Source of the DNA: a virus
Lineage: Duplodnaviria; Heunggongvirae; Uroviricota; Caudoviricetes
Direction: 5' to 3' (one strand)
IMG/VR virus record: IMGVR_UViG_2563366887_000003
DNA: 22,398 bases
This document shows positions 1,754 through 17,040 of the stretch, in pieces. A model generated the notes under the pieces. It did no database searches, had not been told where the DNA came from, and saw nothing but the letters and a program-made list of their open reading frames with translations. Numbering within the stretch: position 1 is the stretch's first letter; each line of letters begins with the position of its first letter. Position numbers and translations under genes: made by a program.

Positions 1754-1778
1754 TATTATTTCCAGTGGTTCGTTTATT

Positions 1779-1928: not shown

Positions 1929-1983
1929 AATTTTTCTCATAAAAATATTTCAAGTTGGCGGTGCATTACACCGCCAGGCTGAA

Positions 1984-2792
1984 TTATTCCTCTGAATTAT
2001 CGATTACACTGTATTCCCCGGTTAATACAGAGGAATCTGCAGGATCGATTGTCAGTGGTTCCTTTTCATCCATTGATACTGCACGCTGGATCTCAATTGA
2101 TACGGGCAGATATTTGAACAGGCGACGAATAGCCGTTTTCTTTGCCATTTCTTCCCAGTGAGTTACCCACGGCCCGTTATTACCAGCTTTACTCTGGCTG
2201 CGCACCAGCTCAATCTGTTTGCGCGTCATAACTTCAAACTGAGTACCTCCGTCTTTCAGTCTTGCGACAGCATAGACGTGGGTAACAGGGGCATCTTCGT
2301 TTTCTCCTGGGCGGTGTATTAACTTTTCATCAAGGCCAAATTCGAAATTAAACTCGTCACCTTCACGGACAACACGGGCTGACAGGCTGGCGATTTGACC
2401 TGAACGGCGAGCCAGATCAATCATGCCGCGATAGCCAATGATTAGCTGAACGTTTTTTTACCGCTCTTTTCGTTTTTATTACCAAAAGGCAGTAAATATG
2501 CATGACCGAGGGCGCTACCGGGCTCAAGTCCGAGCTGTGAACACTGTACGATTGCACTGACAAAACTCATAGTGTCACAGTTTCCTAACGCCGGAACTTT
2601 ACGAATTTCTGTGGTGGCGATACGGATCATACGTTCAGCCGTCATATGGCGTGGAAGAGCTGCTGCCAGTTGCTCTTTCATTGATGGCTGGTTAATAAAA
2701 CTAATCACGTCGTTATTTTTAATTGCTGCTGGTGCACGGTTTCCCTGAGTTTTTTGCAGATCGGCTTTTGCGATTGGTGGTTGCTTAGTCAT
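1984..2792 (-). pseudogene. recT: recT (RecT single-strand annealing recombinase) disrupted by a -1 frameshift in a homopolymer
   Basis: Two adjacent minus-strand ORFs (2442..2849 and 1984..2424) together give exactly the 269-aa RecT sequence if one A is added to the A7 run (plus-strand T7 at 2453-2459). The N-terminal fragment ends ...NEKSGKKTFS*; the downstream frame continues NVQLIIGYRGMIDLARR... Confidence 0.85.
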
Positions 2793-5385
2793 TTGCATAT
2801 TCCTTAGCCCAGCGGGGCAGTGATAACGTCTTAATAGCTGGCCATTCATCGGTATTGAGGCAGTCAGCCAGGGTTCGCAGATTGCGGTGATATTCCAGCT
2901 GACCTGCCAGTTTTGCTTCTTCGCCCATCATGAAAATTTCAACCGGATAACGTCCGCATTCAATAGTTGTGCTGGCAACCAGAAAAACGAAAGTTGGCTG
3001 CACTCCAAACTGTGCTTCATAACCGTCACTGTAGAATGCATCCTGAACGTGATAGCGGTAGTCGTAATAAGCGGTTTTGAATCGTTGAATATCCGCCGTA
3101 GTTTTCACGTCCATGATCCAGTGAAATTCAGGGATAATTTTGTCCGGACGGCACCGACACAAAATTGCTGTTTCAGGATCTTCCCAGTAAATTGATGATT
3201 CAGCGTGTCCGGCGCTTTCAACAAGCCATTGCCCCAGCGGCAAAGCCATAACGCTCTGATACATGAGTTCAATTTTCCGGCCTTCTTCGGCAGTGATAAC
3301 CGTTTTTCCTGTGCTTGCGCATTCCCTCAGAAACGCTTTCTCTTCTTCTTTTCCGGAGTTTGTCCGGCGGTTAAATTCAGGTGCTACGATAAAGCGGTTA
3401 CTGAATTCTTCCGGCTCAAGTACCCGGCAGTGGAAAGCGGTTCCTAAATCGAGCGTTTTTGTCTTTGTGGTGTCCACGGGGGCATTTTTACGCCACAAAT
3501 ACAGTGCCGGAGTATCAGCAATGTCATCGAGCTGAGACTTACTGACACCGGGACCCGCGTGGTAATTCTCATTCGAAATTCCGTAATAAATACCTGGCTC
3601 TATGTCTTCTACGATTACGGGATCTGCGACTTCGCCAGTTTCATCACTGCAATCGCGATGCGGATCGCTGCCAGCATTCTCATTGTGCGGATGTTCAGCG
3701 CCTTCCATTTCCTCCGGATCATTTTCCTTAGCTTCAACCTGACTCTCTTCATCGAATGTTTCCTGGTATGTTGCGTCGCCCATCACCGCACCACAGTCAG
3801 GGCAGTTATCCCCGCCAGTCTGGCCGCAGGCATTGCAGGCTATTTCCGGTTCCTGTTGCACTACTGGCTCAGGTTGATTCATATCCGGGCTGGTTTTTTC
3901 CGTTTCTGGCTGGTTCTGGTACACACAATCGCGAGTCTGGATCCCCTTTACCCATTTCGGATCGTTCGGGTCGCTAATTCCGTCAACAAATTCACCACGT
4001 GATGCAGCAAGCAATTTATCGGCATCGACAGGATTTTTTGATGGAATGTTTTTCCGGGCTTCATGGAGTTCTGCCCGCAGTTCCTGATATTTCGCATCAA
4101 CAGAATTTACCTGTGACTGAGCATCCAGCGGCTGCGTGTCCTGATGATGTTCAGTTGCGTCCGGTTCCATTGTTTCAGCCTCTCCCTGTTCAACTGCCGT
4201 TGTTCCAGATGGTTGCGGTTTTTCTTCATCATCCTGTTTTCCTTCTTCTGTTACTCGCTGCGGCATCGGGGCAGAGGAGCGACCGCAGGCAATATCCACG
4301 ATTTCCGGATCAGGGTTGGCATGATCGGTTTCAGTCAGTACTTTGTTCAGATATTCAGTGACGTGCGCGGGGATGACCTCGATCCCAATTGGTGCTTCTT
4401 TTACGGACGCAACCACGATGGCGCGGGAATAATCCAGCCCGCCAGGCATGGTGATGAATTTGTCGCGGAAAACAGAAAAGGGCGGTTTATTTTCAGCGAT
4501 AATTTCCTCAATGCGTTTAGCGTGTGCCGGATGAAGGTTATAGATGTCCAGATCCATTGAACGGGCCAGTACGCCAGTGGCTACGTCCCGCGCCAGTGAC
4601 GTCAGATCGTGTACGAAACCTTCGCCGCGATCGGTGAGGTTTCCGCCGCCAGCATTAGCACCGGAAGCCGTGCGAGTGATGTGTGAAACACGATTACCCT
4701 TCATCCACTCTTTTGTCAGCAGTCCTCGATCGGTGTAGTCAGCGTTCAGGTATGCTTCGAAAAAAGCAGTTATCAGTCCCAGGTTTGAATTACCAGGATT
4801 AGGGAAAACTTTGTCAGTGTCACGAACCAGTTTGTGGAGTTCGCGAATTTCCAGCGGGTCGAGCAGGCTGGTTTTGTGGGAAACAGCCAGGGCAGTAACA
4901 GCCGGTAGTTCTTCAGCCCGAGCAATGTGTAATGCCTGGAGTCCGTCGCGTGAAACGTGCGTTACCGGTTTTTCGCTGCCGTGTTGAGCAAGCCAACGAA
5001 TGGGCAGTTCCTGGCCAGAAATTGGGAGTAGCATATTCTCCTCAATCTCAGTCATGTCTTCGCCGTTGACGTTGGTATTGCCTTGATAGTGAGCGTTGTC
5101 TGGTGCTGCTCCCGGTTTTAGTTCCCATGTCATGGAGTCTTTGCTGAGTTGATAGCGTTCACTCCAGGTAAAATCGATCTCACCTTCAGCGGGCAGGTCA
5201 TTAACGACAGGAAAATTCGTGGCAACAGCTTTAAAATAGCTGCTCAGTTTTTTACCTGACTTAACGATCAGGTAGTCCAGAGTGGCACAGGTCGATTCAA
5301 AATCGTTGCTTGCCCACAGGACGACGTCAGGTTCACCGGATGATTTTTTCGCTTTCCGTAACAGGAAGAGTGGTTTTGTGCTCAT
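2785..5385 (-). CDS. recE: Exodeoxyribonuclease VIII RecE (866 aa), intact
   Basis: Uninterrupted 866-aa minus-strand ORF, the same length as K-12 RecE; recognisable acidic central region and C-terminal nuclease region. Its stop overlaps the recT start by 8 nt. Confidence 0.9.
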
Positions 5386-5457
5386 TGTTTTTTAACCTCA
5401 ACTCAGATTAAAATTCGTTTTGTTCAGTGAATGATCTTGCCGGATACACACTGTTCA

Positions 5458-5480
5458 TAGCCTGCGCCATACGCAGGCTA
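5458..5480 (+). other. Perfect 9-bp stem-loop in the racC-recE intergenic region
   Basis: tagcctgcg-ccata-cgcaggcta followed by tttctttc on the plus strand, i.e. oriented as a terminator for antisense (plus-strand) transcription. On the coding (minus) strand no U-run follows it. Confidence 0.3.
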
Positions 5481-5486
5481 TTTCTT

Positions 5487-5762
5487 TCAGATTTCACCTT
5501 TTAATTTCATTGCAATTAGAGTTGCCAGAAATTCGGCTTTTTTTTCTGCGGGCAGATTCTTTCCGATATGCACCAGGCACATTTTTTTGACACCTTCATC
5601 AAGTGTTTTTACGTTGCCTGATGGACCATCGATATCAACCACAGTGAATGGGGTTTCTTTATTTTCTGTTTTAATTACGTAGCCAATGCGCTTTCCTTCC
5701 AGATTCACCTCGTGAACAATGTCATCGGTAGTTACAACAGTGGCTTCATAATTGGTAATCAT
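5487..5762 (-). CDS. racC: RacC (91 aa)
   Basis: MITNYEATVVTTDDIVHEVNLEGKRIGYVIKTENKETPF... matches my recollection of Rac RacC. ATG at 5760-5762 is preceded by AAGGAG; the 107-aa track ORF has no Shine-Dalgarno at its upstream start. Confidence 0.8.
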   Translation of the reverse strand: MITNYEATVVTTDDIVHEVNLEGKRIGYVIKTENKETPFTVVDIDGPSGNVKTLDEGVKKMCLVHIGKNLPAEKKAEFLATLIAMKLKGEI

Positions 5763-5836
5763 GTTTTTCTCCTTAATTAAGGTTGAGCGAATACCTGCCA
5801 TTTCTGGCATAAATTCAGTTTCGAATAGTCAATTAA

Positions 5837-6007
5837 TTAAAGTTCATGTGCCATCTGGTCTTTTTCGGCACAAGCTTCACTGCAATATTTTCTCGGTTCG
5901 TCTTTTGATAAAATCCCGTGCATGAAGTGAAGCATTCTTTCAATAGCTTTGCTTTCTTCAACGTCTTTTTTGCAAAGGTGGTAAGCACATTTTATTTTCT
6001 TAGTCAT
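5837..6007 (-). CDS. ydaE: YdaE-like small Cys/His-rich protein (56 aa)
   Basis: Below the track's size cutoff; my translation is [56 protein letters not shown]. Its start codon overlaps the kilR stop (TGATGA). Confidence 0.75.
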   Translation of the reverse strand: MTKKIKCAYHLCKKDVEESKAIERMLHFMHGILSKDEPRKYCSEACAEKDQMAHEL

Positions 6008-6228
6008 CACCATGACTCCGCCTTTACAGGTAAACCATCACGACCGAGGAAGACTTTAATCATGCGGTCAGTAATGCATGTTTTTGTGGTCAGGTTACGA
6101 ATATATAGTTTTCGCTTTTTAATATTGTTTGCCGAGGCAATATATGTCCGGCCTTCATGAAGAACATAATCGCCAGGAGTCACACACTGACGTGGTATTT
6201 CATCAGTTCCGAAGTGATGTGCAATCAT
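6007..6228 (-). CDS. kilR: KilR, FtsZ-targeting cell-division inhibitor (73 aa)
   Basis: [46 protein letters not shown]... matches my recollection of Rac KilR. ATG at 6226-6228 has a GGAGA Shine-Dalgarno; the track ORF starts 4 codons upstream. Confidence 0.85.
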
Positions 6229-6669
6229 AATTATCTCCATTTTTACAAATGAACTTTGTTGATGCGGTGCCTGGTGCCTCCAGGTGACTGCAACCAGTTA
6301 ACAATTACAGTCGGCTTTCCCACCCAAACCAATAAGGACTAACATGACTTTTAACTGTGCCACGTGCGCTTAGCCGCATTCACCGCATCACAAAATTCAC
6401 TTTAAAAAGGGCGGACATCAGCCGAACTTCAAGAAAAAAACTGATGCCGCCAGGACTACACACAGCAATGTCGTTATTTACAACCGGAGGCGCACTCCCA
6501 CCATTTAAATTTAACAGACAAGACCGACTCTTTATGGATACCGGAAATGCGCCTTCGTGTTGTGCCCGGTTTTATTTCACCACCTCCGGGCTTCGGTGGT
6601 CTCGGCTATACCCCTACAGCGAGAGCTTGTGTTAACATTTCAATACCCTTACAGTTGAGAGTTATTGAT

Positions 6670-7158
6670 ATGTTGGATGTATTTACTCCATTGTTGAAAC
6701 TTTTTGCTAACGAGCCACTCGAAATACTTATGTATACGATTATCATTTTTGGTCTCACTCTCTGGCTGATACCGAAAGAGTTTACTGTCGCATTCAATGC
6801 TTATACTGAAATACCTTGGCTCTTTCAGATTATCGTTTTTGCCTTTTCTTTCGTGGTCGCCATTTCCTTCTCAAGATTGCGAGCACATATTCAAAAGCAT
6901 TATTCATTACTACCAGAGCAACGAGTATTGCTTCGTTTATCTGAGAAAGAAATCGCTGTATTTAAAGATTTCCTTAAAACAGGAAATCTTATTATCACTT
7001 CTCCTTGCCGTAACCCGGTTATGAAAAAATTAGAACGGAAGGGCATCATTCAACATCAGAGTGATAGCGCAAACTGTTCTTATTATCTCGTCACCGAAAA
7101 ATACTCCCATTTTATGAAGTTATTCTGGAACAGCAGGAGTAGACGTTTTAATCGTTAG
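6670..7158 (+). CDS. sieB: Superinfection exclusion protein SieB (162 aa)
   Basis: MLDVFTPLLKLFANEPLEILMYTIIIFGLTLWLIPKEF... with hydrophobic N-terminal segments; matches my recollection of Rac SieB. The track ORF begins upstream at a non-ATG position. Confidence 0.85.
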   Translation: MLDVFTPLLKLFANEPLEILMYTIIIFGLTLWLIPKEFTVAFNAYTEIPWLFQIIVFAFSFVVAISFSRLRAHIQKHYSLLPEQRVLLRLSEKEIAVFKDFLKTGNLIITSPCRNPVMKKLERKGIIQHQSDSANCSYYLVTEKYSHFMKLFWNSRSRRFNR

Positions 7159-7310
7159 CTTACTGTGTGCTTCTCCAACCATCGGCGCGCACCAGTTTCG
7201 GTTTTAAATGTTTTGCTTTTGGTATACGTCATGGCAGTGAACGTTCCATCCTGGTTGGGGAACACGCCGCACACCAGGGATTCGTTGTTGCCGAGGTCGA
7301 TTTTTTGCAT
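7155..7310 (-). CDS. ydaF: YdaF-like small protein (51 aa)
   Basis: Below the track cutoff; my translation is MQKIDLGNNESLVCGVFPNQDGTFTAMTYTKSKTFKTETGARRWLEKHTVS. Overlaps sieB tail-to-tail by 4 nt. Confidence 0.7.
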   Translation of the reverse strand: MQKIDLGNNESLVCGVFPNQDGTFTAMTYTKSKTFKTETGARRWLEKHTVS

Positions 7311-7320
7311 TTTGCGAATC

Positions 7321-7455
7321 TCACATCTTGTTGCTGTGTATAGCGACTTCTGCCTGCCAGAGATCCCAGTCGTTGCTGCGTAAAGCCTGCACAGCCTGGT
7401 TGTAAGTGATACCGCAACAATCCATCAAATACTGAACTACTTCGTAATGCACCAT
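7321..7455 (-). CDS. ydaG: YdaG-like small protein (44 aa)
   Basis: Below the track cutoff; my translation is MVHYEVVQYLMDCCGITYNQAVQALRSNDWDLWQAEVAIHSNKM. Confidence 0.7.
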   Translation of the reverse strand: MVHYEVVQYLMDCCGITYNQAVQALRSNDWDLWQAEVAIHSNKM

Positions 7456-7504
7456 CTTATCTCTCCCCTTAACGCCGGGTGACCTAGTTTTACCATCGCT
7501 GCAT

Positions 7505-7648
7505 ATGGCAAACCGCGAACTGCGTCGGGCGAAAAATCATGTCCAGAAGTGGGAGCGAGTCTGCGCCGCGCTGCGGGAGCTGAACAAGCACCGGGATATT
7601 GTCCGACAGATTGTCGATTCCTCCAGTCGTATTGTGTCGGAAAAGTGA
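7505..7648 (+). CDS. Small charged ORF (47 aa), possibly the N-terminal part of a gene split by an in-frame TGA
   Basis: ATG at 7505; translation MANRELRRAKNHVQKWERVCAALRELNKHRDIVRQIVDSSSRIVSEK; no obvious Shine-Dalgarno. It is in the same frame as the 7664 ORF, separated only by TGA (7646-7648) and five codons. Confidence 0.25.
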   Translation: MANRELRRAKNHVQKWERVCAALRELNKHRDIVRQIVDSSSRIVSEK

Positions 7649-7663
7649 TTGCCGGAGGCGCTT

Positions 7664-8080
7664 ATGGCAAAAGTTTTTACACAGGAAGAGCGTGAAAAAA
7701 TTAAGGAGCAGGTTGTTGAGTTGGTACGCCAGAGTGGGCGCGAGACGTTAAGGCAACTGGAGGCCAAGACAGGTGCGACAAGATATCTGATGAGCATTCT
7801 TGCCAGAGAGTTGGTTGCCAGTGGCGATGTATACAACTCTGGCTATGGGTTATTCCCGTCTGAACAGGCTCGTAAGGATTGGAAAAACGCCCGCAAAAAA
7901 CTATCCAGGGCAAAGGTGAAAAAAACGGTTGTGGTTGATCCTGACCTTATCTGGTCATTACCAGACGGAGAAATACGCCGCTATGACAGGCGTCAGAACA
8001 TAATCTGTCGCGAGTGCCGGAAGAGTGAAGTTATGAAACGTGTACTGGCATTTTATCAAGGAAATCTTCGGTATTTATAG
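7664..8080 (+). CDS. Hypothetical protein (138 aa), basic, possibly DNA-binding
   Basis: ATG at 7664 with GGAGG 5 nt upstream (the track ORF starts at TTG 7649). GC content and codon usage look host-like. I cannot assign a family. Confidence 0.55.
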   Translation: MAKVFTQEEREKIKEQVVELVRQSGRETLRQLEAKTGATRYLMSILARELVASGDVYNSGYGLFPSEQARKDWKNARKKLSRAKVKKTVVVDPDLIWSLPDGEIRRYDRRQNIICRECRKSEVMKRVLAFYQGNLRYL

Positions 8081-8218
8081 ACGTTACTAGATCAAAGAGC
8101 ATTAGTTCATATGTAAATTGACATTTTTCTGGCACAGGGGAGAGCTAGCGTGGTTGTCCGCTTTGTGCCAATAGCGGACATTGCTGGCTCATGGTATGTT
8201 AGTTTAAGGAGGCAGGTT

Positions 8219-9241
8219 ATGCCCTGTATTTCGCTGTGGTATAATAGTTGCGCAATTGATACAAGGGAGCGTTACATCGTGAAAATTGTTTTCGAGGTTA
8301 ATGGAAAGAAAGTTCCACTAAAATCTTTAAAATACATAAGCAAAAAAGATCAACTCGAAGTAATGAAAAACTGGTTCTTTGAAAACTTTGAAGATCCGGC
8401 AAATGCTTGTCCGTATGAAAGTAGAGAAGGTGGCTATGCTTACATATATGGCGGGCCGTATGATGCGAGCGAAGAACTACAATCCATCTTCGGTCAATAT
8501 GTTAAATCTGAGTATATTGAGGAATTAGTAGATGAATTACAAACACAATGTTTTGACTGGTCTGGAAACTCAAATAATATAGATGATTGGTACGATGATG
8601 ATATCTACGACGCTGTAACGTCTTCCGGTAATCCGTATTTAAAATTCATTGATAATATCGATAAAATAAAAAAACTTGCAAAAGATAAAACTGAACAACA
8701 GCAAAAAAACCACTTGCTTAGTTTGCTCTACACGAATGTTATTACAGCTTTGGAAACGCTTTATGTTGAGCTATTCATTAATTCTATAGAGAAAGATGAT
8801 GTCTACATAGCCAATTGTATAGAAAAAGGTAAGACTGAATTTAAAGTAAGCAAAGATATTGCTGCGTTGCCTTTCAAGGGTGAACCCATCGAGAAAATTA
8901 GGGGAGAGCTAATCAGGTCAATCAAGGAACACTTGATCAGTGCAAGCTGGCATAGCACTAAAAAGGTAATCGACCGCTATGAAGCTACATTCGATATAAA
9001 AGTACAAAAAGACTGTCCGATAGAAGCTATTGAATTGGCAACCCTCAATCGAAATCACTTAGTGCATCGTGGTGGAAAGGATAAAGAAGGGAACCTCGTA
9101 GTGATTACAGACCAGGATCTTGAAACGCTGATTGAAAATGCATCGAACCTGGCAATTATGCTCTACAACAGTTTAAATGTAGCAACGAATAAAACCACCA
9201 TTTTGCAACCAGATGACAAACCGTTCATTCATGAATTTTAA
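8219..9241 (+). CDS. Hypothetical protein A of an AT-rich two-gene operon (341 aa from ATG 8219, or 320 aa from GTG 8279); C-terminal region carries an R-x4-H motif (RNHLVH) reminiscent of HEPN domains
   Basis: Long ORF with a sharp shift to AT-rich composition from about 8280. ATG 8219 has a perfect TAAGGAGG 6 nt upstream. Alternative GTG 8279 has AAGGGAG upstream and follows an extended -10 (TGgTATAAT at 8237-8245). No family recognised by eye. Confidence 0.7.
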   Translation: MPCISLWYNSCAIDTRERYIVKIVFEVNGKKVPLKSLKYISKKDQLEVMKNWFFENFEDPANACPYESREGGYAYIYGGPYDASEELQSIFGQYVKSEYIEELVDELQTQCFDWSGNSNNIDDWYDDDIYDAVTSSGNPYLKFIDNIDKIKKLAKDKTEQQQKNHLLSLLYTNVITALETLYVELFINSIEKDDVYIANCIEKGKTEFKVSKDIAALPFKGEPIEKIRGELIRSIKEHLISASWHSTKKVIDRYEATFDIKVQKDCPIEAIELATLNRNHLVHRGGKDKEGNLVVITDQDLETLIENASNLAIMLYNSLNVATNKTTILQPDDKPFIHEF

Positions 9242-9256
9242 TAGCGCAGGTCATAC

Positions 9257-10258
9257 ATGGATATTCGCACACGAAAGACAAAATTTTTAGAGTCGTTAGA
9301 TTCAACTGAAGTGATACGCAAAGCAGTAAGTCTCGCTATAGATTGCATTATTGATAATCATAATAGTAATGAAGATACCCCCTTAGTTATTACCAGCTAT
9401 GATGATCTCTGTAGAATCCAGGTGCTAAATTATGTACAGGAGTTTTGCGAAGCTGCATTCCCTGATATGGATGAATATTACTTTAGTCCTAACATACTTC
9501 GCATCAACGGCAAGACTAGTGAAGAAGCTTGTATTAACTTAATTAAACTCTTAAGAAGTACAAAAGGCATGCTATTCTGGTCCGATGCCCCATCGTGGTT
9601 CGCTAGCCTCCCCGACGGATTATTCCATGTTGTTAACATTGATCAAAAAATCGTTACTCGCGGCCTTAATAAGAAAAACTCTAAGCCGACAATAATCAAT
9701 AAAGATTACAGTGTAGATACACTACTATCAGAGCTATTTTTGAATGGCGCACACATGGAGCAACCCAACGTACACAACGTTTCTGAGGGAAACATGAAGT
9801 TCTATGATGAATGCCATGCTGGATTAATCAGACCAATACCCGCTCCAATAGGCGCGTCATACGATGAAGAGATCACAATTAATTCTCCAGATTGGCAAAA
9901 GCTCGCGTGTGTAGCTTTACGCCGCTATCAGTCGAAGGAATGTCATGACGGAATGCAATGGGATACAACCGATCATGGTTGGACTGATGTAATCGCGTAT
10001 CCATTCGTCGAAGAAATACAATCAATGGATAATAGTGGTTATCGACAATGTTTAGTTGGGCTGGTCACAATAAACAATTCAAATGCAAATTCTCCGTACC
10101 TATCTACCGTTTGGATACATCCATTTTATCGCAGGAGAGGGTTATTAAGTAAGTTATGGCCAAAATTACAAGAGTTATATGGAAGTAACTTCGAAATTGA
10201 GCGACCTAATGAAAATATGAAAGCATTTCTGAAAAGTGCGAAACACGCAGATTACTAA
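9257..10258 (+). CDS. Hypothetical protein B of the two-gene operon (333 aa)
   Basis: ATG 15 nt after the stop of protein A, same strand, same AT-rich composition. C-terminus (WIHPFYRRRGLLSKLW...NENMKAFLKSA) loosely resembles GNAT motifs A and B but the tail is too short for a canonical GNAT fold. Confidence 0.75.
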   Translation: MDIRTRKTKFLESLDSTEVIRKAVSLAIDCIIDNHNSNEDTPLVITSYDDLCRIQVLNYVQEFCEAAFPDMDEYYFSPNILRINGKTSEEACINLIKLLRSTKGMLFWSDAPSWFASLPDGLFHVVNIDQKIVTRGLNKKNSKPTIINKDYSVDTLLSELFLNGAHMEQPNVHNVSEGNMKFYDECHAGLIRPIPAPIGASYDEEITINSPDWQKLACVALRRYQSKECHDGMQWDTTDHGWTDVIAYPFVEEIQSMDNSGYRQCLVGLVTINNSNANSPYLSTVWIHPFYRRRGLLSKLWPKLQELYGSNFEIERPNENMKAFLKSAKHADY

Positions 10259-10812
10259 TTTATGAATCAGTCTGTGGAGTTAGGGTTGGTGTGAACAAGT
10301 AGGGTAAGAGCCTCAACGTGATGCTATGCCGACCTGCTCCCTGAGAATTCACACAGAAGGCTGCTAGCAATGTCTGCAGATCGCTCAAAGCGGACTAAAA
10401 TGTTGGCTTGTTTCTGACTTAGAGCATTTAAGGAAGTGCTGGTGGTGACTGGTTGTTGTGTTCCATTTCTACAGAATAAAATCACAGAAACTATACCCAA
10501 TAGTTGTATTGAATCACTGACGAGACAGCCTCATATTTATCAGGACTGGTGTGCGTCTAATACAGGGGGTTGTCGTGCTGGTTCTCAAATGTGCGCTGGC
10601 TATTGCGGCTGTAATGGCAATTTATTGTCTTGCTGTTGTTCTTATGGAGCGGCTTTCTGATTGATTACATACTGGCTAGAAAAAAGGTGTTACCTTGGTT
10701 TATCTTTGTCCGGCAAGGTGCGCTCATTAATCTTAAGTAAATTTATTGCTCAAGTATTCAGATTACTTCTTATGGTTGAAGTCTCCTGTCAATGTAGAAC
10801 CAATATATTTAC

Positions 10813-10850
10813 AAAAATGAGACCCGTCGGGGATAGCCCTGCCGGGTCTG
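10813..10850 (-). terminator. Rho-independent terminator downstream of the YeaR-like gene
   Basis: On the minus strand: GC-rich hairpin agacccg...cgggtct followed by cattttt, about 30 nt after the stop at 10879. Confidence 0.5.
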
Positions 10851-10878
10851 ACTGTTAAAGCATTTTTAATATGATCAT

Positions 10879-11217
10879 CTATTTTTTGGTGCTATAGACT
10901 TTTTCGCCCGAAAAGTCTGGAGCGACCCAAAAGTTAATATTAAACTGAGCATCATCGCTTAGTTCAACACGGTGCCAGTATTGTGGTGGGCTTGTTGCAA
11001 AAGCGCCAGCATTAATGACTACTTTTATCTCCGGTTCAGTAGCATTCTCATCAGTAAAACCATAATATGTTACAGTGCCTTCCATTACGCACAACTGCCC
11101 AAAAACACCTGCTGCTGTATTATGATGTGTTAATAACGCTGAAGGTACGTTCTCTTTTGTGAAGAACGGAGTTGAGCGTTTGATTACCCAATCTTTAGGA
11201 ATTCTCTTGTGTGTCAT
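10879..11217 (-). CDS. YeaR-like DUF1971 (cupin-like, TehB-N-domain-like) protein, 112 aa
   Basis: ATG at 11215-11217 with GGAGGAGGTGG Shine-Dalgarno. Sequence pattern RSTPFF...LCVMEGTVTYYGF...EP...AGAFA..PP..WH...FNINFWVAP parallels E. coli YeaR as I remember it. The track ORF starts 8 codons upstream, inside the palindrome. Confidence 0.7.
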   Translation of the reverse strand: MTHKRIPKDWVIKRSTPFFTKENVPSALLTHHNTAAGVFGQLCVMEGTVTYYGFTDENATEPEIKVVINAGAFATSPPQYWHRVELSDDAQFNINFWVAPDFSGEKVYSTKK

Positions 11218-11225
11218 AACCACCT

Positions 11226-11272
11226 CCTCCAAAAGATGCATTAAAAATGCATCTTTTGGAGGGTTATGTCAA
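11226..11272 (-). promoter_or_regulatory. Perfect 17-bp inverted repeat (3-nt spacer) resembling an NsrR operator, with a consensus -35 TTGACA immediately upstream
   Basis: cctccaaaagatgcatt-aaa-aatgcatcttttggagg at 11226-11262. Its core AAGATGCATTAAAAATGCATCTT matches the NsrR box (AAGATGCATTT-N-AAATGCATCTT, as I recall it) at 22 of 23 positions. On the minus strand TTGACA (plus 11267-11272) lies just upstream; the repeat ends 9 nt before the start codon. Confidence 0.6.
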
Positions 11273-12030
11273 GCTGTTATGAAACACATAATTGATATGT
11301 TGATTAGAGGAGAAGATAGAATAAATATGGTTGTTTTTCGTATAACTATTTGTTTTACTTTTAGTTTATGCATTCTGTGTGTTAGGAATAAGTTATTAAA
11401 GTTTAATCAAAAAATCTCGATGTAGTCCACATAGATTACTGTTACTGAACCTTATTGTGTGTATTAGTTGTGTTCTGAAATTTCAGCTTAATTATTTATG
11501 ATGTATTTTTTAACGATAAATATTTCCCCAGGATACCTTTACTGTGTATATAAATAAATTATATACGCATAAATAATGTAAAGGCGTCCTTTTAGATATA
11601 TCTTATCAAATGTTAATGACTTGAGTGGGAAATATGATTCCAGCAACTTATCATGTGGCTACTTTATAAAAATAATGCCCATATAAAACAACAAGCGAAA
11701 AGGATTACGGATAAAAAAGGAGCGAGATGTGCGAACTTGTTATTTTCCATGTTTAACCACCTTAAATAATTGATGATGACGGGATGATTGCATCTGTAAT
11801 GCTTTTATTGAAATGTTATGATAAAAAAGAACTTTTGCATAACATTAAAATGTAATTTATCTAATCGTTTTTAATAATAAGTGTCGTATTTCTATCCTTG
11901 TACCAGCTATTTGATATGTAGTGTTTGTTCATGCTATGTGGGGCTTTACACCATAGCCAGTTTATTTATACTTTATTCGTCAGCCTGAACAACTGGCATC
12001 TGCTGCGCTGCGCCATCGAGAGATTGAGAA

Positions 12031-12630
12031 ATGGCGCATATACAACTGGTCAAACAAACCTCTTCTGGTTTACTTCTCCCGGCGACGCCGGAGAGTTGCG
12101 ATTTTCTGCATCAAATCAAAATAGGTGAGTGGATACACGCAGACTTTAAGCGTGTGCGTAACTACGCATTCCACAAGCGTTTTTTCAAACTCCTGCAACT
12201 GGGATTCGATTACTGGACTCCGGTCGGTGGGGCGATCACGCCTCGCGAACGAGAACTGCTGTCTGGTTTCGTTGATTACCTGTGCGAATCAGTTGGTCGG
12301 GAACACACGCCAGCCCTGAGTGATGCCGCAGAGCAATACCTTAACACCGTTGCGACTCGTAGAACCCGGGATACGGCGTTGCTAAAGTCGTTTGAGGCTT
12401 TCCGCGAGTGGGTAACCATTCAGGCCGGATTTTACACCGAGCATATTTATCCGGACGGTAGCCGTGGGCGTCGGGCAAAATCCATCGCTTTTGCGAATAT
12501 GGACGAAGTCGAGTTTCAGCAGGTTTATAAATCTGTACTGAATGTGCTGTGGAACTGGATTCTGTTCCGTAAATTCTCCTCTCAGGAGGAAGTTGAAAAT
12601 GTGGCCGCACAACTACTGGAGTTTGCGTAA
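12031..12630 (+). CDS. Lambdoid nin-region protein, DUF1367-like (199 aa)
   Basis: ATG at 12031; the stop overlaps the next start (TAATG). Placement directly before the YbcO-like and Q-like genes is typical for nin regions. The family assignment is from memory and not certain. Confidence 0.65.
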   Translation: MAHIQLVKQTSSGLLLPATPESCDFLHQIKIGEWIHADFKRVRNYAFHKRFFKLLQLGFDYWTPVGGAITPRERELLSGFVDYLCESVGREHTPALSDAAEQYLNTVATRRTRDTALLKSFEAFREWVTIQAGFYTEHIYPDGSRGRRAKSIAFANMDEVEFQQVYKSVLNVLWNWILFRKFSSQEEVENVAAQLLEFA

Positions 12631-12920
12631 TGGTGAATTTACGTAAAGCGGCTAAAGGCCAGATGTGCCAGATCAGAATCCCTGGCTACTGCAATCACAA
12701 TCCCGAAACCTCTGTGCTGGCGCATTACAGGCTGGCGGGGACGTGCGGAACAGCGACAAAACCACATGATATGCAGGCGGCGATAGCCTGTAGCTCATGC
12801 CACGATCTAATCGACGGGCGGGTAAAAACCAGCGATTACACCAAAGAAGAATTGCGCCTGATGCATGCTGAAGGGGTTTTTCGCACACAAGAAATCTGGA
12901 GAAAGAAAGGTCATTTATGA
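12630..12920 (+). CDS. YbcO-like DUF1364 protein (96 aa, Cys/His-rich putative nuclease)
   Basis: MVNLRKAAKGQMCQIRIPGYCNHNPETSVLAHYRLAG..CSSCHDLIDGR contains a Cys/His cluster. Same length and position (just before Q) as DLP12 YbcO. Confidence 0.7.
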   Translation: MVNLRKAAKGQMCQIRIPGYCNHNPETSVLAHYRLAGTCGTATKPHDMQAAIACSSCHDLIDGRVKTSDYTKEELRLMHAEGVFRTQEIWRKKGHL

Positions 12921-13459
12921 TTTACCCAACGAATACAGGAAAAAGCGGAGAACACCTTCGCCTCACCACGCTGGAAAGTGTCTGGATTCAGGGAAAACTA
13001 CGTATGTGGGGGCGCTGGTCGTATATTGGCGGTGGCAGGTCAGGGAATATGTTCAATCAGTTGTTGGCATACAAAAAACTGACGAAAACAGCCATTAATG
13101 AAGCCCTGCGCAGAATGAAAAAAGCGGGAATAGAGAAAGCTGAGCTGGAAGCGTTTTTGCGAGAGATGATCAACGGCAAGCAAAAGAGCTGGCTGGCGCA
13201 TTGTACTGATGCAGAGGCGTTATGTATTGATCGAGTCATAAGTGAGGTGCTGGCAGAGCATCCAGGATTGATTTGCATTCTCCGGCAACGCTATGAAGGG
13301 CGGGGGATGACTAAGCGCAAAATGGCTGAATTGCTAAATGATGCACACCCAGAGTGGTGTTTTAGCACATGCGAAAAACGGATTGCTAATTGGTTAGCTG
13401 TTGCTGAGTATGCCCTATATATTCCCATGCGTGAATCATTTGCTGAGAAAATGGCTTGA
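12917..13459 (+). CDS. Late-gene antiterminator Q-like protein (180 aa)
   Basis: ATGA start/stop overlap with the preceding gene. Last gene before terminators and the lysis cassette, which is the canonical Q position. Family called from position and general resemblance only. Confidence 0.55.
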   Translation: MIYPTNTGKSGEHLRLTTLESVWIQGKLRMWGRWSYIGGGRSGNMFNQLLAYKKLTKTAINEALRRMKKAGIEKAELEAFLREMINGKQKSWLAHCTDAEALCIDRVISEVLAEHPGLICILRQRYEGRGMTKRKMAELLNDAHPEWCFSTCEKRIANWLAVAEYALYIPMRESFAEKMA

Positions 13460-13540
13460 TTTCTTACGTATAAACTGCTTCAATTTTGCTATGCTTCGCA
13501 AAGCTGTATCGCGAGGCGGATTGCAGACATGGACATCGTA

Positions 13541-13566
13541 AAAAAACCGCTTAATGCGGTTTTTTT
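13541..13566. terminator. Bidirectional rho-independent terminator after the Q-like gene
   Basis: aaaaaaccgc-ttaat-gcggttttttt: a short GC stem flanked by an A6 run and a T7 run. Confidence 0.6.
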
Positions 13567-13886
13567 ACGTCAGGAAAGCAGGGGAGAATGCTGCTAGTTG
13601 GGCAACTGGTCTTTCTGCTCCAAATTATAACAGAGACCAGTTATAGTTTCGGTGCTGTGTTTTTTTTACAATATTGTGATAACACATTGCTGGCGGGAGT
13701 TTTGATATTTCTTGGCAGGGGCTGATGATGCGTTATCCTGATGTCGTCAACTCATATAAAATGAGATGAGAGATCATTGCAGGGTGGTTTGTAATTCGCT
13801 GTTTAGCGGGACAATATGTTGTCTGATACAAGACACCCGACGCCTCAGATTACTATAATAAAGACGAAGCATCCTTTGTATTGACC

Positions 13887-13912
13887 AACCGCCTGTTTAG
13901 GCGGTTCTTTTT
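13887..13912 (+). terminator. Rho-independent terminator (tR'-like candidate)
   Basis: aaccgcc-tgttta-ggcggtt followed by cttttt. Confidence 0.55.
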
Positions 13913-14444
13913 GGGCTGGTTTATTGTATGCCAAATGATTATTAAAAAGGTTGTGTTAATAACAAAATCCGAAATAATATGCCTGCATATTTTTATCTTG
14001 CTTATATTCTGCATATTGTGCATAGCAGGCTCATCCCTGCAATCAAAACTGTATGATGAGTATTTTTTGTTTTCCTTTTTTCCAGTCATCTGATGATGAC
14101 CTGCTTCTTTTTAATCCGGATCGACATCAGTTTTTTAAGATAATTCCTGCGAGTTATATGCATAAATGCCACAAACTCCGCATTTTATGTGGTTGGGAGT
14201 TGCCGGGCGCGCAGTGAGTTTGCTAAGAAAACTCCTGCATGGTGAATCCCCCTGTGCGGTGGGGTGATACCATTAACCTTTTCTGTCGCCGACAGGTATC
14301 ACGAACATTTTGTTCACCGGGAGGCACCCGGCACCATGCACTTCAATAGATTCTCTCCACATTATGGATATTCTTTCAGAATATCCCACGCAGACTTTGT
14401 GTAAATGTTAACAAATGTGCGTTTTATTTGATCTGATTCGCTGT

Positions 14445-14474
14445 TTGAGCGTCCAAAACAACGGTATATATAAT
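14445..14474 (+). promoter_or_regulatory. Candidate sigma70 promoter for the first TolA-like lipoprotein gene
   Basis: TTGAGC (14445-14450), 18-nt spacer, TATAAT (14469-14474), about 30 nt upstream of the start codon. Confidence 0.4.
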
Positions 14475-14503
14475 CCTTTACTATATGACATATGTGAGGA
14501 AAA

Positions 14504-14932
14504 ATGGGTTTTCGTAGCGCATCAATTCTTACGTTGATTATTAGTGGGATTATTATCGGGTGCACTGATGCTGTATCGACAAATTATCATGACCGTACAT
14601 CATATTACTCCGATAAAGCAATAGAGACACAGTATGTGAGTTCATCTGAACGTACTTCTGATGTTAGTGAGGATATCCGTCTGTATGCCCATCAAATCAA
14701 GAGCGCCATCGAAAAACAGTTCGGGGATGCGAGTAAGTATTCAGGAAAAGAGTGTACACTGAGAATGCATATGGCCCCGAATGGCCTTCTACTGGAGGTT
14801 AAAAGAGAAAGTGGAGACCTCGATTTATGTCGTGAAGCGATGAATGCGATAAAGAATGCTGATATACCTGCCCCCCCTTCGCCGGAAGTATATAAAGTAT
14901 TTCAAAATGGGGTGCTGGATTTTAAACCCTGA
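14504..14932 (+). CDS. Lipoprotein with a C-terminal TolA-domain-III-like domain (142 aa)
   Basis: Signal peptide with lipobox IIGC (MGFRSASILTLIISGIIIGC). C-terminal 85 aa, YAHQIKSAIEKQFGDASKYSGKECTLRMHMAPNGLLLEVKRESGDLDLCREAMNAIKNADIPAPPSPEVYKVFQNGVLDFKP, closely parallels the TolA C-terminus as I recall it (YAGQIKSAIESKFYDASSYAGKTCTLRIKLAPDGMLLDIKPEGGDPALCQAALAAAKLAKIPKPPSQAVYEVFKNAPLDFKP). Confidence 0.8.
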   Translation: MGFRSASILTLIISGIIIGCTDAVSTNYHDRTSYYSDKAIETQYVSSSERTSDVSEDIRLYAHQIKSAIEKQFGDASKYSGKECTLRMHMAPNGLLLEVKRESGDLDLCREAMNAIKNADIPAPPSPEVYKVFQNGVLDFKP

Positions 14933-15082
14933 TATTTATTGTTTTGTAATAAACGGTTTCGGCTTAGGTTTGTTCTGACACAGCTACGGCACTGAGCTAA
15001 ATTTAGCGGATAGTCAGCTCTGAGCCAGTGGCGGACGTAACAACTACTATTGCTGAGATTTTAATGGATTGAGGAGCAAGAA

Positions 15083-15478
15083 GTGGGATTAAAGAAAATC
15101 GTTATGTTGACTTTTTGGGTCGGTTTTGTTGCGGGATGCACACCTTTACACCCTTCAGATTGCCACAAAACTACTGCTACAGGTAGTTGCAGTTCAGGAC
15201 GCTGGGATGATCAGGATGAATGGGGGGCGCAAGCGCGGGGAATCAGAGCTGCAATTAATGCCAAACTTGATGAGCCGCATAACTGGAAAGGGAAAAAATG
15301 CAGGTTGCATATGGAATTCTCTCAGGATGGCACGGCGTTAAAAATATCTACCAGTAACGGTGATAAAGCCTATTGCGAAGCGATAAAGTCCGCAGCTCAT
15401 AAAGCCAAATTTCCGGCCTTCAACAATCCGGAAGTCTACAGAGATTTTCAGAAATCTGGCTTTGACATGCGAGGTTAG
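15083..15478 (+). CDS. Second, more divergent TolA-domain-III-like lipoprotein (131 aa)
   Basis: GTG start at 15083 with GAGGAG 6 nt upstream. Lipobox VAGC (MGLKKIVMLTFWVGFVAGC). C-terminus KKCRLHMEFSQDGTALKISTSNGDKAYCEAIKSAAHKAKFPAFNNPEVYRDFQKSGFDMRG keeps the two Cys residues and the PEVY motif of the first copy. Confidence 0.7.
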   Translation: MGLKKIVMLTFWVGFVAGCTPLHPSDCHKTTATGSCSSGRWDDQDEWGAQARGIRAAINAKLDEPHNWKGKKCRLHMEFSQDGTALKISTSNGDKAYCEAIKSAAHKAKFPAFNNPEVYRDFQKSGFDMRG

Positions 15479-15729
15479 CTCTTCAATTACTATATCTCAT
15501 TCATAGCAAACTGACAGATTTGATGATGTTCTATATACGAAACCTGTGATGTCAAGTCTGAGCTAATACAAATAAACATAATATCAGAGAAATACATTTT
15601 ATTAGCTCGCTACGGCGAGCTTTTTATATTGCATCGTCTCCAGCATATATATCAATTAAGGCTCTGATTGATGTGTCTGAAAGCCTACACATAATAACTA
15701 TGCCATCCGTTCCGTGCGGAGGTGAGGCT

Positions 15730-15945
15730 ATGAAATCCATGGACAAAATTTCAACAGGCATTGCCTACGGCACCTCCGCAGGCAGTGCTGGCTACTGGTT
15801 TTTACAGTTGCTCGATAGAGTAACTCCGTCACAGTGGGCTGCAATCGGTGTGCTGGGTAGTCTGGTATTTGGCCTGCTGACGTACCTGACAAACCTTTAT
15901 TTCAAGATTAAAGAAGATAAGCGCAAGGCTGCGAGAGGTGAATAA
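15730..15945 (+). CDS. Phage 21-type pinholin (S21-like, 71 aa) with dual-start motif
   Basis: [71 protein letters not shown]. Two in-frame ATGs (15730 and 15739; M-K-S-M) as in S21 antiholin/holin. GGAGGTGAGG Shine-Dalgarno upstream; TAATG overlap with the endolysin. Confidence 0.85.
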
Positions 15946-16442
15946 TGCCTCCATCATTACGAAAAGTCGTTGCTGCTGCTATTGGTGGCGGAGCAATTGC
16001 TATAGCATCAGTGTTAATCACTGGCCCAAGTGGTAACGATGGTCTGGAAGGTGTCAGCTACATACCATACAAAGATATTGTTGGTGTATGGACTGTATGT
16101 CACGGGCATACAGGAAAAGACATCATGCTCGGTAAAACGTATACCAAAGCAGAATGCAAAACACTCTTGAATAAAGACCTTGCCACTGTCGCCAGACAAA
16201 TTAACCCGTACATCAAAGTCGATATACCGGAAACAACGCGCGGCGCTCTTTACTCATTCGTTTACAACGTGGGTGCTGGCAATTTCAGAACATCGACGCT
16301 TCTTCGCAAAATAAACCAGGGCGATATCAAAGGCGCATGTGATCAGCTACGTCGCTGGACATATGCTGGCGGTAAGCAATGGAAAGGTCTCATGACTCGT
16401 CGTGAGATTGAGCGTGAAATCTGTTTGTGGGGTCAGCAATGA
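15945..16442 (+). CDS. SAR endolysin (R21-like lysozyme, 165 aa)
   Basis: N-terminal Gly/Ala-rich weakly hydrophobic signal-anchor-release segment ([20 protein letters not shown]) followed by a lysozyme-like domain; overlaps the holin stop and the Rz start. Confidence 0.85.
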
Positions 16443-16903
16443 ACAGAGTAACCGCGATTATCTCCGCTCTGGTTATCTGCATCATCGTCTGCCTGTCATG
16501 GGCTGTTAATCATTACCGTGATAACGCCATTACCTACAAAGCCCAGCGCGACAAAAATGCCAGAGAACTGAAGCTGGCGAACGCGGCAATTACTGACATG
16601 CAGATGCGTCAGCGTGATGTTGCTGCGCTCGATGCAAAATACACGAAGGAGTTAGCTGATGCGAAAGCTGAAAATGATGCTCTGCGTGATGATGTTGCCG
16701 CTGGTCGTCGTCGGTTGCACATCAAAGCAGTCTGTCAGTCAGTGCGTGAAGCCACCACCGCCTCCGGCGTGGATAATGCAGCCTCCCCCCGACTGGCAGA
16801 CACCGCTGAACGGGATTATTTCACCCTCCGGGAACGACTGGTAATGATGCAGGCCCAACTTGAAGGTGCTCAGCAATACATAACCGAGCAGTGTTTAAAG
16901 TAA
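16439..16903 (+). CDS. Rz-like i-spanin (154 aa)
   Basis: ATG at 16439 overlaps the endolysin stop (ATGA). N-terminal TM segment followed by a coiled-coil-like Ala/Arg/Asp-rich periplasmic domain. The track ORF starts at GTG 16427. Confidence 0.8.
16659..16844 (+). CDS. rzoR: Rz1-like o-spanin lipoprotein (61 aa), embedded in the +1 frame of Rz
   Basis: [24 protein letters not shown]...[15 protein letters not shown]: lipobox VVGC and a proline-rich tail; matches my recollection of Rac RzoR. Confidence 0.8.
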
Positions 16904-17040
16904 AATCTTAACTACAATATGATTCATTTTGATGATTGTTTCATAAGGAACAGTGAAGTAAGATCTAAGAGGAGTTAAATTTTATACAGTATAATCATAA
17001 TATTGCAGCAAGGTGGTTATAATTGAAAGAATATTTAGAT

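What the first reader, a model, noticed from the sequence alone, without database searches (positions are those of the whole stretch)
8219..10258. AT-rich two-gene operon of unknown function sitting where the prophage immunity/replication module should be: candidate novel defence or abortive-infection system
Two long same-strand ORFs (341/320 aa and 333 aa) separated by 15 nt are much more AT-rich than the flanking prophage genes, which suggests a separately acquired cassette. They occupy the slot between ydaG and the nin region where Rac-type phages carry repressor and replication genes, none of which is present. The module has its own expression signals (TAAGGAGG plus ATG, or an extended -10 plus GTG). 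Protein A has a C-terminal helical region with an R-x4-H motif (RNHLVH) of the kind found in HEPN RNase domains of Abi proteins. Protein B has a C-terminal segment resembling GNAT motifs A and B. I recognise neither protein as a known family.
Basis: partly seen in the sequence, partly recalled or inferred. Interest (0 to 1): 0.85.

Follow-up and report, generated by a model that had tools for sequence, protein, structure and literature searches.

The report
Prophage HEPN nuclease plus acetyltransferase cassette
A mobile, AT-rich two-gene cargo cassette in a defective E. coli Rac prophage encodes a predicted sensor-plus-HEPN RNase, the RNase counterpart of the recently described aRES anti-phage proteins, followed by an uncharacterised GNAT-fold acetyltransferase; it is a plausible but untested anti-phage module, and it does not replace the phage immunity genes.

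Summary
The two ORFs are real, co-directional, 15 nt apart and AT-rich (36% and 39% GC against 44% for the window).

**The slot.** Intact Rac relatives carry the repressor and replication genes upstream of DUF977, with A-B after it. This window has a separate 3.7-kb deletion.

**Are A and B one system?**
- A homologues are mostly solitary, and B homologues also occur alone.
- Paired A genes form one clade, so B was acquired once and then co-inherited (matching dS).
- Either gene can be lost while the other stays intact.

Most likely A is a self-contained abortive-infection RNase. B is an add-on of unknown role.

Neither matches PADLOC. Nothing here was tested experimentally. Novelty is moderate: a new variant of a known kind.

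The parts
7476..7481 (.). Deletion junction. 3,671 bp of Rac immunity/replication genes (two HTH regulators, ydaT, ydaU, ydaV, most of DUF1627) are missing relative to intact relatives.
   Evidence: blastn of the window against L001 gives two collinear blocks: 1-7481 and 7476-21171, matching L001 848-8329 and 12001-25696.
7664..8080 (+). DUF977 (Ren-like) gene, the last gene of the replication region. The cassette always follows it in lambdoid prophages.
   Evidence: PF06163, E 3e-31; phrog_142 'Ren-like exclusion protein'. PGAP annotation.
7654..10676 (+). Mosaic block (DUF977 + A + B + about 420 bp) shared at 97% identity with an unrelated lambdoid prophage at ompW in UTI89.
   Evidence: blastn of the window against L068; annotation.
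8237..8245 (+). Candidate extended -10 promoter element, TGGTATAAT, upstream of gene A.
   Evidence: Read directly from the sequence. The -10 is conserved as TATAAT, TACAAT or GATAAT in Citrobacter, Aeromonas and metagenomic homologues. The simple promoter scan did not call it because the -35 is weak.
8263..8269 (+). Shine-Dalgarno AAGGGAG, 9 nt before the GTG start of A.
   Evidence: Sequence. ACAAGGAG plus the GTG is conserved in all five diverged lineages aligned.
8279..9241 (+). Gene A, 320 aa (WP_014639476.1): PF18870 N-terminal domain plus a HEPN RNase domain.
   Evidence: dN/dS is 0.12-0.16.
8279..8578 (+). A residues 1-100: HEPN/RES N-terminal domain 1 (PF18870), the putative sensor or regulatory module. 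Motif: WF..EDP..PY..EGGY.YI.GGP.
   Evidence: PF18870 scores 22.2 bits (curated cut-off 27.4) on the window protein at residues 26-92. It matches 86 of 93 homologues, several above the cut-off. The same domain occurs with PIN_8 or other C-terminal modules.
8633..9202 (+). A residues about 119-308: the helical HEPN domain.
9050..9070 (+). R258-N-H-L-V-H263-R264: the HEPN R-x4-H catalytic motif, with a polar residue after the Arg.
   Evidence: Codons CGA AAT CAC TTA GTG CAT CGT. R258, H263 and R264 are invariant across 93 sequences down to 26% identity.
9242..9256 (+). 15-nt A-B spacer (TAGCGCAGGTCATAC). It is conserved in every paired locus, which implies co-transcription.
   Evidence: Spacer comparison in window, L058, L071, L073, L012 and L061.
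9257..10258 (+). Gene B, 333 aa (WP_000354966.1): a family-specific N-terminal alpha/beta domain plus a C-terminal GNAT fold.
   Evidence: dN/dS is 0.21-0.48.
9257..9706 (+). B residues 1-150: alpha/beta domain of unknown fold assignment, found only in this family.
   Evidence: AlphaFold2 model, pLDDT 90. phmmer against 1.84 billion representatives found only 21 hits: same-architecture proteins of about 330 aa, short fragments, and one marginal 1,253-aa hit (E 5.5e-4). No recurring Pfam hit.
9779..10255 (+). B residues about 175-333: GNAT-fold acyltransferase domain. The motif A-like segment HPFYRRRGLLSKLW is at 10118-10159.

Best explanation
The segment is a horizontally mobile, co-transcribed two-gene cargo cassette. 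It sits in the variable accessory slot that follows the replication-region gene DUF977 in lambdoid prophages. This copy is in a Rac prophage that has separately lost its immunity/replication genes.

**Gene A.** A is a two-domain protein: PF18870 'HEPN/RES N-terminal domain 1' fused to a HEPN ribonuclease domain with an intact R-x4-H site. It is the RNase-effector counterpart of aRES, where the same N-terminal domain is fused to a RES NADase. Like aRES and the solo prophage HEPN protein HepS, it most likely acts alone as an abortive-infection or defence protein:
1. It is made constitutively from its own promoter in the lysogen.
2. It is held inactive. The N-terminal domain is the presumed sensor or regulator.
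3. An infection cue activates it.
4. HEPN domains then pair to form the composite active site and cut cellular RNA, with tRNA or mRNA the likely targets. This arrests growth before the phage completes its cycle.

**Gene B.** B is a GNAT-fold acyltransferase with a private N-terminal domain. One sub-lineage of A picked it up once, and the two have been inherited together since. B is not required for A's viability, nor A for B's. Its role is open: a modulator of A, or an independent cargo function.

**Shown here, by computation only:** domain architecture, motif invariance, folds, purifying selection, the solo and paired distributions, co-descent, mobility and slot variability.

**Inferred:** RNase activity, default-off regulation, sensing by the N-terminal domain, the abortive outcome, and any function of B.
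For: **Architecture of A**
- PF18870 matches 86 of 93 family members and PF18735 HEPN matches 39 of 93.
- E159, W224-H225, R258, H263 and R264 are invariant.

**Link to known defence proteins**
- aRES is defined by PF18870 plus a RES domain. It protects E. coli as a stand-alone protein, with growth arrest.
- HepS is a solo HEPN abortive-infection protein. It lies in the same kind of lambdoid accessory position, is not toxic by default and has no partner.
- PF18870 also occurs with PIN_8 and with other C-terminal modules. That is the pattern of one module paired with swappable effectors.

**A is autonomous**
- 23 of 30 loci with full-length A homologues lack B. They have no conserved neighbour and lie in prophages or next to integrases.
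- A 77%-identical copy sits alone in a chromosome.
- A is intact where B is frameshifted.
- No RNA antitoxin-like repeat or Rfam element lies nearby.

**The cassette is a unit**
- Paired A genes form one clade.
- The 15-nt spacer is conserved.
- dS of A and B match in each pair.
- The cassette is found on five kinds of mobile element.

**The slot is variable**
- QueH, small DUF genes, a TetR/deaminase/SIR2 set, or a methyltransferase follow DUF977 in other strains.
- DUF977 is in 3,900 of 5,426 complete genomes, against 209 for A-B.
Against: - There is no experimental evidence of protection, RNase activity or expression for this protein or any close homologue. Literature searches found none.
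- The window protein itself scores below Pfam's curated cut-off for PF18870 (22.2 against 27.4 bits) and does not hit PF18735. The assignment rests on family-level hits and on the fold.
- No PADLOC model matches A or B.
- The sensing role of the N-terminal domain has not been shown, even for aRES.
- A and B have been co-inherited to dS of about 1, with a fixed spacer. That suggests some functional tie, which this explanation leaves open.
- A was lost independently at least three times with B kept, each with a different breakpoint. This could mean A is costly, but it could also mean B is the selected gene.
Confidence: 0.6

Rival explanations
1. A and B form one obligate two-component module, either a toxin-antitoxin pair or a two-gene defence system. 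The GNAT protein B would control the HEPN nuclease A, for example by acetylating it or its RNA or protein target. This would be analogous to MntA AMPylating the HepT HEPN toxin.
For: - The genes are co-directional with a conserved 15-nt spacer.
- They show co-descent over dS of about 0.04 to 1.1.
- Paired A genes are monophyletic.
- They move together between Rac, a second lambdoid prophage, IncF plasmids, an IncFIB phage-gene-bearing plasmid and an Aeromonas island.
- B's nearest folds are protein-lysine acetyltransferases.
Against: - Most A homologues, including a 77%-identical one, have no B.
- B homologues at 39-62% identity have no A.
- One complete genome keeps A intact with B frameshifted at about residue 262.
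- At least three independent lineages deleted A and kept B.
- Neither pattern fits strict addiction. One caveat: the frameshifted B keeps its N-terminal domain, which could be the part that binds A.
Confidence: 0.22
2. A and B are unrelated cargo genes that happen to be linked. B has its own function, such as acetylation of a host or phage protein, a small molecule or aminoacyl-tRNA, and that function is independent of A.
For: - B occurs alone on a Serratia ICE, in Marinomonas next to an Abi_2-like gene, in a Shewanella phage-like region and in a Neptunicella chromosome.
- B is retained, and still served by A's promoter, after A is deleted.
- The B family is small and self-contained.
Against: Linkage with a fixed spacer is maintained to dS of about 1 and across five kinds of mobile element. 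That is more than casual hitch-hiking would predict, although operon linkage alone could explain it. Nothing indicates B's substrate.
Confidence: 0.15
3. The cassette serves the prophage's own biology rather than defence, for example RNA processing or host takeover during induction, or lysogenic conversion.
For: It sits among early-region genes, downstream of replication genes and upstream of nin/Q. No hit to any catalogued defence system was found.
Against: - The same cassette is on conjugative plasmids and on a relaxase-bearing island that have no lambdoid life cycle.
- It persists in this prophage, which has lost its replication and immunity genes.
- A's relatives sit in unrelated positions of unrelated phages.
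- A's domain partner family, aRES, is defensive.
Confidence: 0.03

Closest known systems
aRES (antiphage RES-domain proteins; Sorek laboratory preprint, bioRxiv 10.64898/2026.01.28.702374)
   Same: Both have the PF18870 N-terminal domain. Both are single polypeptides with an N-terminal module and a C-terminal toxic enzyme. Both are stand-alone in most genomes and are carried on mobile or defence loci of Enterobacteria.
   Different: The effector is a HEPN RNase instead of a RES NAD+ phosphorylase, so the expected damage is RNA cleavage rather than NAD+ depletion. A has not been tested experimentally. In this lineage A has a co-transcribed GNAT partner.
HepS (solo HEPN abortive-infection protein of Salmonella prophage Gifsy-1; PMC13043305)
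   Same: Both are prophage-encoded HEPN proteins with a canonical R-x4-H motif. Both lie in the accessory slot after the replication genes of a lambdoid prophage, and neither has a conserved partner in most homologues.
HepT-MntA (HEPN-MNT) toxin-antitoxin systems
   Different: The partner here is a 333-aa GNAT-fold protein downstream, not a minimal nucleotidyltransferase. A has an extra N-terminal domain. Either gene can be lost, which addiction modules do not tolerate for the antitoxin.
Single-protein HEPN defence systems ApeA, PD-T4-2 and DARNA (PD-T7-3)
   Same: These are one-protein defences with a HEPN effector fused to a non-catalytic domain. Several cleave tRNA and act by abortive infection.
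   Different: The PADLOC models for these families do not match A. DARNA has the HEPN domain at the N-terminus and a 300-aa C-terminal ssDNA-sensing domain, the reverse order with an unrelated sensor.
GNAT-RHH toxin-antitoxin toxins (TacT, AtaT, ItaT)
   Same: B has a GNAT fold and lies on mobile elements.
   Different: B is twice as long and has a private N-terminal domain. It has no small RHH/DUF1778 antitoxin gene beside it. It survives alone. Its nearest structures are protein-lysine and polyamine acetyltransferases, not tRNA-acetylating toxins.

Membership tests
HEPN superfamily (protein A, C-terminal domain) | R-x4-6-H motif with a polar residue after the Arg | tested here: met
   R258-N-H-L-V-H263 at 9050-9067. 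R258 and H263 are invariant in 93 homologues down to 26% identity.
HEPN superfamily (protein A, C-terminal domain) | All-alpha HEPN fold | tested here: met
HEPN superfamily (protein A, C-terminal domain) | Match to a curated HEPN profile (PF18735 RiboL-PSP-HEPN) | tested here: inconclusive
   The window protein has no hit at E <= 1. 39 of 93 homologues hit at E <= 0.01, best 7e-11. P0101 (36.1 bits) and P0113 (29.0 bits) exceed the 28.4-bit cut-off.
PF18870 HEPN/RES N-terminal domain 1 (protein A, N-terminal domain) | Match to the Pfam profile at the curated cut-off | tested here: inconclusive
   The window protein scores 22.2 bits against a 27.4-bit cut-off (E 2e-4). 86 of 93 homologues hit at E <= 0.01, and several relatives are above the cut-off (P0113 29.6; P0116 28.7; L032 29.3).
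aRES defence proteins | PF18870 domain together with a RES domain in one protein | tested here: not met
   PF18870 is present, but the C-terminal domain is HEPN and no RES hit was found. The definition is taken from the preprint's methods. A is a sister architecture, not a member.
aRES defence proteins | Protection against phages with growth arrest | not testable with these tools
   Needs plaque and growth assays.
HepS family | Sequence or specific structural homology to HepS | tested here: not met
HEPN-MNT (HepT/MntA) toxin-antitoxin | Adjacent minimal nucleotidyltransferase antitoxin | tested here: not met
   The only operon partner is a GNAT-fold protein. Upstream is DUF977.
Type III (AbiF-like) HEPN with RNA antitoxin | Tandem-repeat RNA antitoxin next to the HEPN gene | tested here: not met
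   No tandem repeat in 7400-10300 and no Rfam hit near A.
Obligate two-gene system (A with B) | Partner gene conserved next to homologues across lineages | tested here: not met
   B is adjacent in only one A clade (>= 78% identity). 23 of 30 full-length A loci lack it. B homologues at 39-62% identity lack A. Each gene is found intact with the other broken.
GNAT superfamily (protein B, C-terminal domain) | GNAT fold | tested here: met
GNAT superfamily (protein B, C-terminal domain) | Pfam PF00583 at the curated cut-off | tested here: inconclusive
   The window protein scores 19.9 bits against a 20.7-bit cut-off. Homologues P0164 (27.0) and P0166 (26.2) are above it. 44 of 54 members hit at E <= 1.
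GNAT superfamily (protein B, C-terminal domain) | Acetyl-CoA motif A, Q/R-x-x-G-x-G/A | tested here: inconclusive
   The sequence reads R292-R-R-G295-L-L297, with family consensus R-R-x-G-K-L. R292 is invariant, but the last G/A position is Leu. My alignment to the motif is by eye.
GNAT-RHH toxin-antitoxin (TacAT/AtaRT) | Toxin of about 170 aa with an adjacent small RHH/DUF1778 antitoxin | tested here: not met
   B is 333 aa with an extra domain. No small ORF partner is conserved.
Any system in PADLOC-DB v2.0.0 | Match to a system protein model | tested here: not met
   A and B give no meaningful hit. Across the A family there are only weak HEPN-level matches (16 of 93 to RTasHEPN, best 1e-4). 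For the B family there are 2 of 54 to PDC-S04 at 1e-3.

The most novel reading that the evidence does not exclude
B is a dedicated acetyltransferase that covalently switches the HEPN nuclease A on or off, or edits A's trigger or target. That would be an acetylation-based counterpart of the AMPylation control in HepT-MntA, grafted onto an aRES-type sensor-effector protein. It would be a new regulatory layer for solo abortive-infection nucleases, and B's private N-terminal domain would be the A-recognition module.
Probability: 0.12. Interest if true: 0.75.

Novelty: new variant of a known kind. Interest (0 to 1): 0.45.

Why it matters
If A protects against phages, the PF18870 domain becomes a portable module that can drive at least two different suicide effectors: the RES NADase in aRES and the HEPN RNase here. 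PIN and membrane-tail versions are visible in viral contigs. That would make the domain a tractable model for how one module is paired with interchangeable effectors. Domain-swap experiments between aRES and A could test it directly.

The cassette is in about 4% of complete E. coli genomes, including UTI89 and avian pathogenic strains, and on IncF plasmids. It may therefore affect phage-therapy host range.

B is a rare, uncharacterised GNAT family that keeps travelling with a nuclease, and it is a cheap target for a first functional assay.

The finding also documents that the position after DUF977 is a variable cargo slot in Rac-type and Qin-type prophages.

Tried and rejected
- **Sequence-profile searches of both families against all PDB chains.** Only chance-level hits.
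- **Word-index homologue search with A's N-terminal 104 residues.** I hoped to pull out RES-bearing relatives. It returned only fragments of A itself, so homology of A's N-domain to aRES rests on the shared Pfam model and the preprint's definition, not on a direct alignment.
- **tblastn of that domain against plasmids.** It found A homologues and other PF18870 proteins but no annotated RES protein.
- **Pfam and PADLOC on neighbours of B in other genera.** No informative hits and no conserved partner.
- **Rfam and tandem-repeat scans for an RNA antitoxin.** Nothing near the cassette.
- **Literature searches by protein accession and by Pfam names.** No study of A or B.
- **Rejected: ATG 8219 as the start.** It is not conserved outside the E. 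coli/Citrobacter lineage.
- **Rejected: the cassette replaces the immunity module**.
- **Rejected: B as a toxin neutralised by A.** B persists after A is deleted.
- **Rejected: chance ORFs.** Homologues exist and dN/dS is low.
Full report
**1. What is in the sequence**

The window is an E. coli Rac-type prophage. It carries intR, recT/recE, sieB, nin-like genes, lysis genes and trkG.

Two co-directional ORFs lie at 8219/8279-9241 (A) and 9257-10258 (B). They are separated by 15 nt.

Base composition:

| Region | GC |
|---|---|
| Gene A | 36.1% |
| Gene B | 39.1% |
| Whole window | 44.1% |
| DUF977 | 47.2% |
| nin genes | 49.1% |
| recE | 49.8% |
| Right flank, 10259-12030 | 36.9% |

The low-GC tract therefore runs on past the finding, to about 12030.

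Only one set is conserved in diverged homologues from Citrobacter, Aeromonas, two metagenomic contigs and a solitary chromosomal copy. That set is the -10 element (TGGTATAAT, 8237-8245), the AAGGGAG Shine-Dalgarno sequence and GTG 8279. Homologous proteins begin at that position, and PGAP calls the 320-aa form. So A is 8279-9241.

Both genes are under purifying selection. dN/dS is 0.12-0.16 for A and 0.21-0.48 for B.

**2. The slot**

The window is collinear at 99.9% with the Rac prophage of strain JP538, apart from a 3,671-bp deletion at window 7476-7481. The deletion removed two HTH regulators, ydaT, ydaU, ydaV and most of DUF1627.

In JP538, in FORC_081 and in a different lambdoid prophage at ompW in UTI89, the immunity and replication genes lie upstream of DUF977 and A-B lies immediately after it. 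The cassette therefore does not stand in for the immunity module. This prophage is simply defective.

The position after DUF977 is a variable cargo slot. Other strains carry different genes there:
- QueH
- small DUF genes
- a TetR / adenosine deaminase / NTP pyrophosphatase / SIR2 set
- a methyltransferase

DUF977 is in 3,900 of 5,426 complete E. coli genomes. A-B is in 209, always at 99% identity or more. The HepS paper describes the same kind of position in Gifsy-1 as a place where lambdoid prophages keep accessory genes.

**3. Protein A**

The window protein gives a sub-threshold Pfam hit to PF18870, 'HEPN/RES N-terminal domain 1' (22.2 bits, cut-off 27.4). At family level the assignment is firm:
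- 86 of 93 homologues match PF18870.
- 39 of 93 match PF18735 (RiboL-PSP-HEPN), best E 7e-11. Some score above the curated cut-offs.

The alignment of 93 sequences, down to 26% identity, has invariant E159, W224-H225, R258, H263 and R264. This is RNHLVHR, a canonical R-x4-H motif with a polar residue after the Arg.

**4. What A resembles**

A 2026 preprint defines aRES as proteins with PF18870 plus a RES domain. It shows that they protect E. coli as stand-alone genes, by NAD+ depletion and growth arrest. A has the same N-terminal domain with a HEPN RNase in place of RES. The Pfam name anticipates exactly this pairing.

In viral contigs and metagenomes the domain also occurs with a PIN_8 nuclease. 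It also occurs ahead of a 'GHNxPPE' segment with a hydrophobic tail. That is the pattern of one module combined with swappable effectors.

Known single-protein HEPN defences have other architectures: HepS, ApeA, PD-T4-2 and DARNA. The PADLOC models for those included in PADLOC v2 do not match A. I found no paper on A itself.

**5. Protein B**

The C-terminal 110-135 residues adopt a GNAT fold:
- Foldseek's best hits are HAT1, MYST, ESCO1 and ATAT, which are protein-lysine acetyltransferases.
- Pfam PF00583 is just under its cut-off for the window protein and above it for homologues.

The motif A position reads R-R-R-G-L-L rather than R-x-x-G-x-G/A, so cofactor binding is likely but unproven.

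The N-terminal 150 residues form a confident alpha/beta domain. An exhaustive HMMER scan of 1.84 billion representatives found this domain only in B-family proteins and short fragments, apart from one marginal longer hit. There were 21 hits in all. Its function is unknown.

**6. Are A and B one system?**

*For:*
- The 15-nt spacer is conserved.
- dS of A and B match in every pair: 0.04/0.04, 0.14/0.10, 0.41/0.46 and 1.10/0.74.
- All paired A genes form one clade.
- The pair moves together between Rac, a second lambdoid prophage, an IncF conjugative plasmid, a Citrobacter IncFIB plasmid carrying phage-type genes and an Aeromonas relaxase-bearing island.

*Against:*
- 23 of 30 loci with full-length A homologues have no B and no other conserved neighbour.
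- A 77%-identical A sits alone beside sucCD.
- B homologues at 39-62% identity lack A.
- One complete genome keeps A intact with B frameshifted.
- At least three lineages deleted A at different breakpoints and kept B, still behind A's promoter.

The simplest reading is that solo A is ancestral. B was captured once and is a dispensable add-on. No RNA antitoxin-like element is present.

**7. Verdict**

A is very probably a PF18870-HEPN protein, with about 0.95 confidence for the architecture. It is plausibly a self-contained abortive-infection RNase, at about 0.6. Functional coupling with B is possible but not favoured, at about 0.2-0.3.

This is a new variant of a known kind, with moderate interest. 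All functional statements are inferences from homology, fold and genomic context. Nothing was tested experimentally.

Noticed in passing
window 7476-7481: A 3.7-kb deletion removed the Rac repressor and replication genes, so this prophage is cryptic. FORC_081 has a different, partial deletion that shares the same right-hand breakpoint inside DUF1627.
   Followed up: partly
window 10259-12030: The AT-rich tract continues past B. It holds a DUF1971 (TehB-like) gene on the minus strand (10879-11241) and about 800 nt of apparently non-coding DNA at 29-31% GC (11251-12000). UTI89 shares only about 420 bp beyond B, so this is a separate mosaic piece.
   Followed up: no
window 1557-1735 and 14207-14393: Rfam finds the RalA antitoxin sRNA (225 bits) opposite ralR, and the sRNA STnc100 (87 bits) in the late region.
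   Followed up: no
L031-L035, L037-L040, L043-L045, L048 (viral contigs): A recurrent, unannotated architecture. PF18870 is followed by an acidic linker, a conserved 'G(I/M)GHN.PPE' motif and a hydrophobic C-terminal tail ending in PF or similar. It may be a membrane-acting effector version of the aRES/HEPN family.
   Followed up: partly
L046/L047 4996-6279; P0117: PIN_8 nuclease with PF18870 at the C-terminus. The domain order is reversed relative to A.
   Followed up: partly
L061-L063 6392-6844: Downstream of the orphan B in Citrobacter/Enterobacter islands lies a 150-aa ORF with the motif RVRNNLFHGGK, reminiscent of A's RNHLVHRGGK. It has no Pfam or PADLOC hit and may be a minimal HEPN protein. 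The island also carries Fic and an integrase.
   Followed up: partly
L058-L060 (Aeromonas caviae island): The A-B cassette sits next to a convergent SIR2 plus cREC_REC gene pair and a relaxase. This is a defence-island-like neighbourhood on a mobilisable element.
   Followed up: no
L078 4152-7225 (E. coli E275a, same slot after DUF977): The cargo here is TetR, adenosine deaminase, non-canonical purine NTP pyrophosphatase and SIR2. It looks like another defence-type operon in the same hotspot.
   Followed up: no
L024, L027, L029, L042 (Mu-like viral contigs): Distant A homologues (27-29% identity) are inserted between head-morphogenesis genes of Mu-like phages. This is a different moron position from the lambdoid one.
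   Followed up: no
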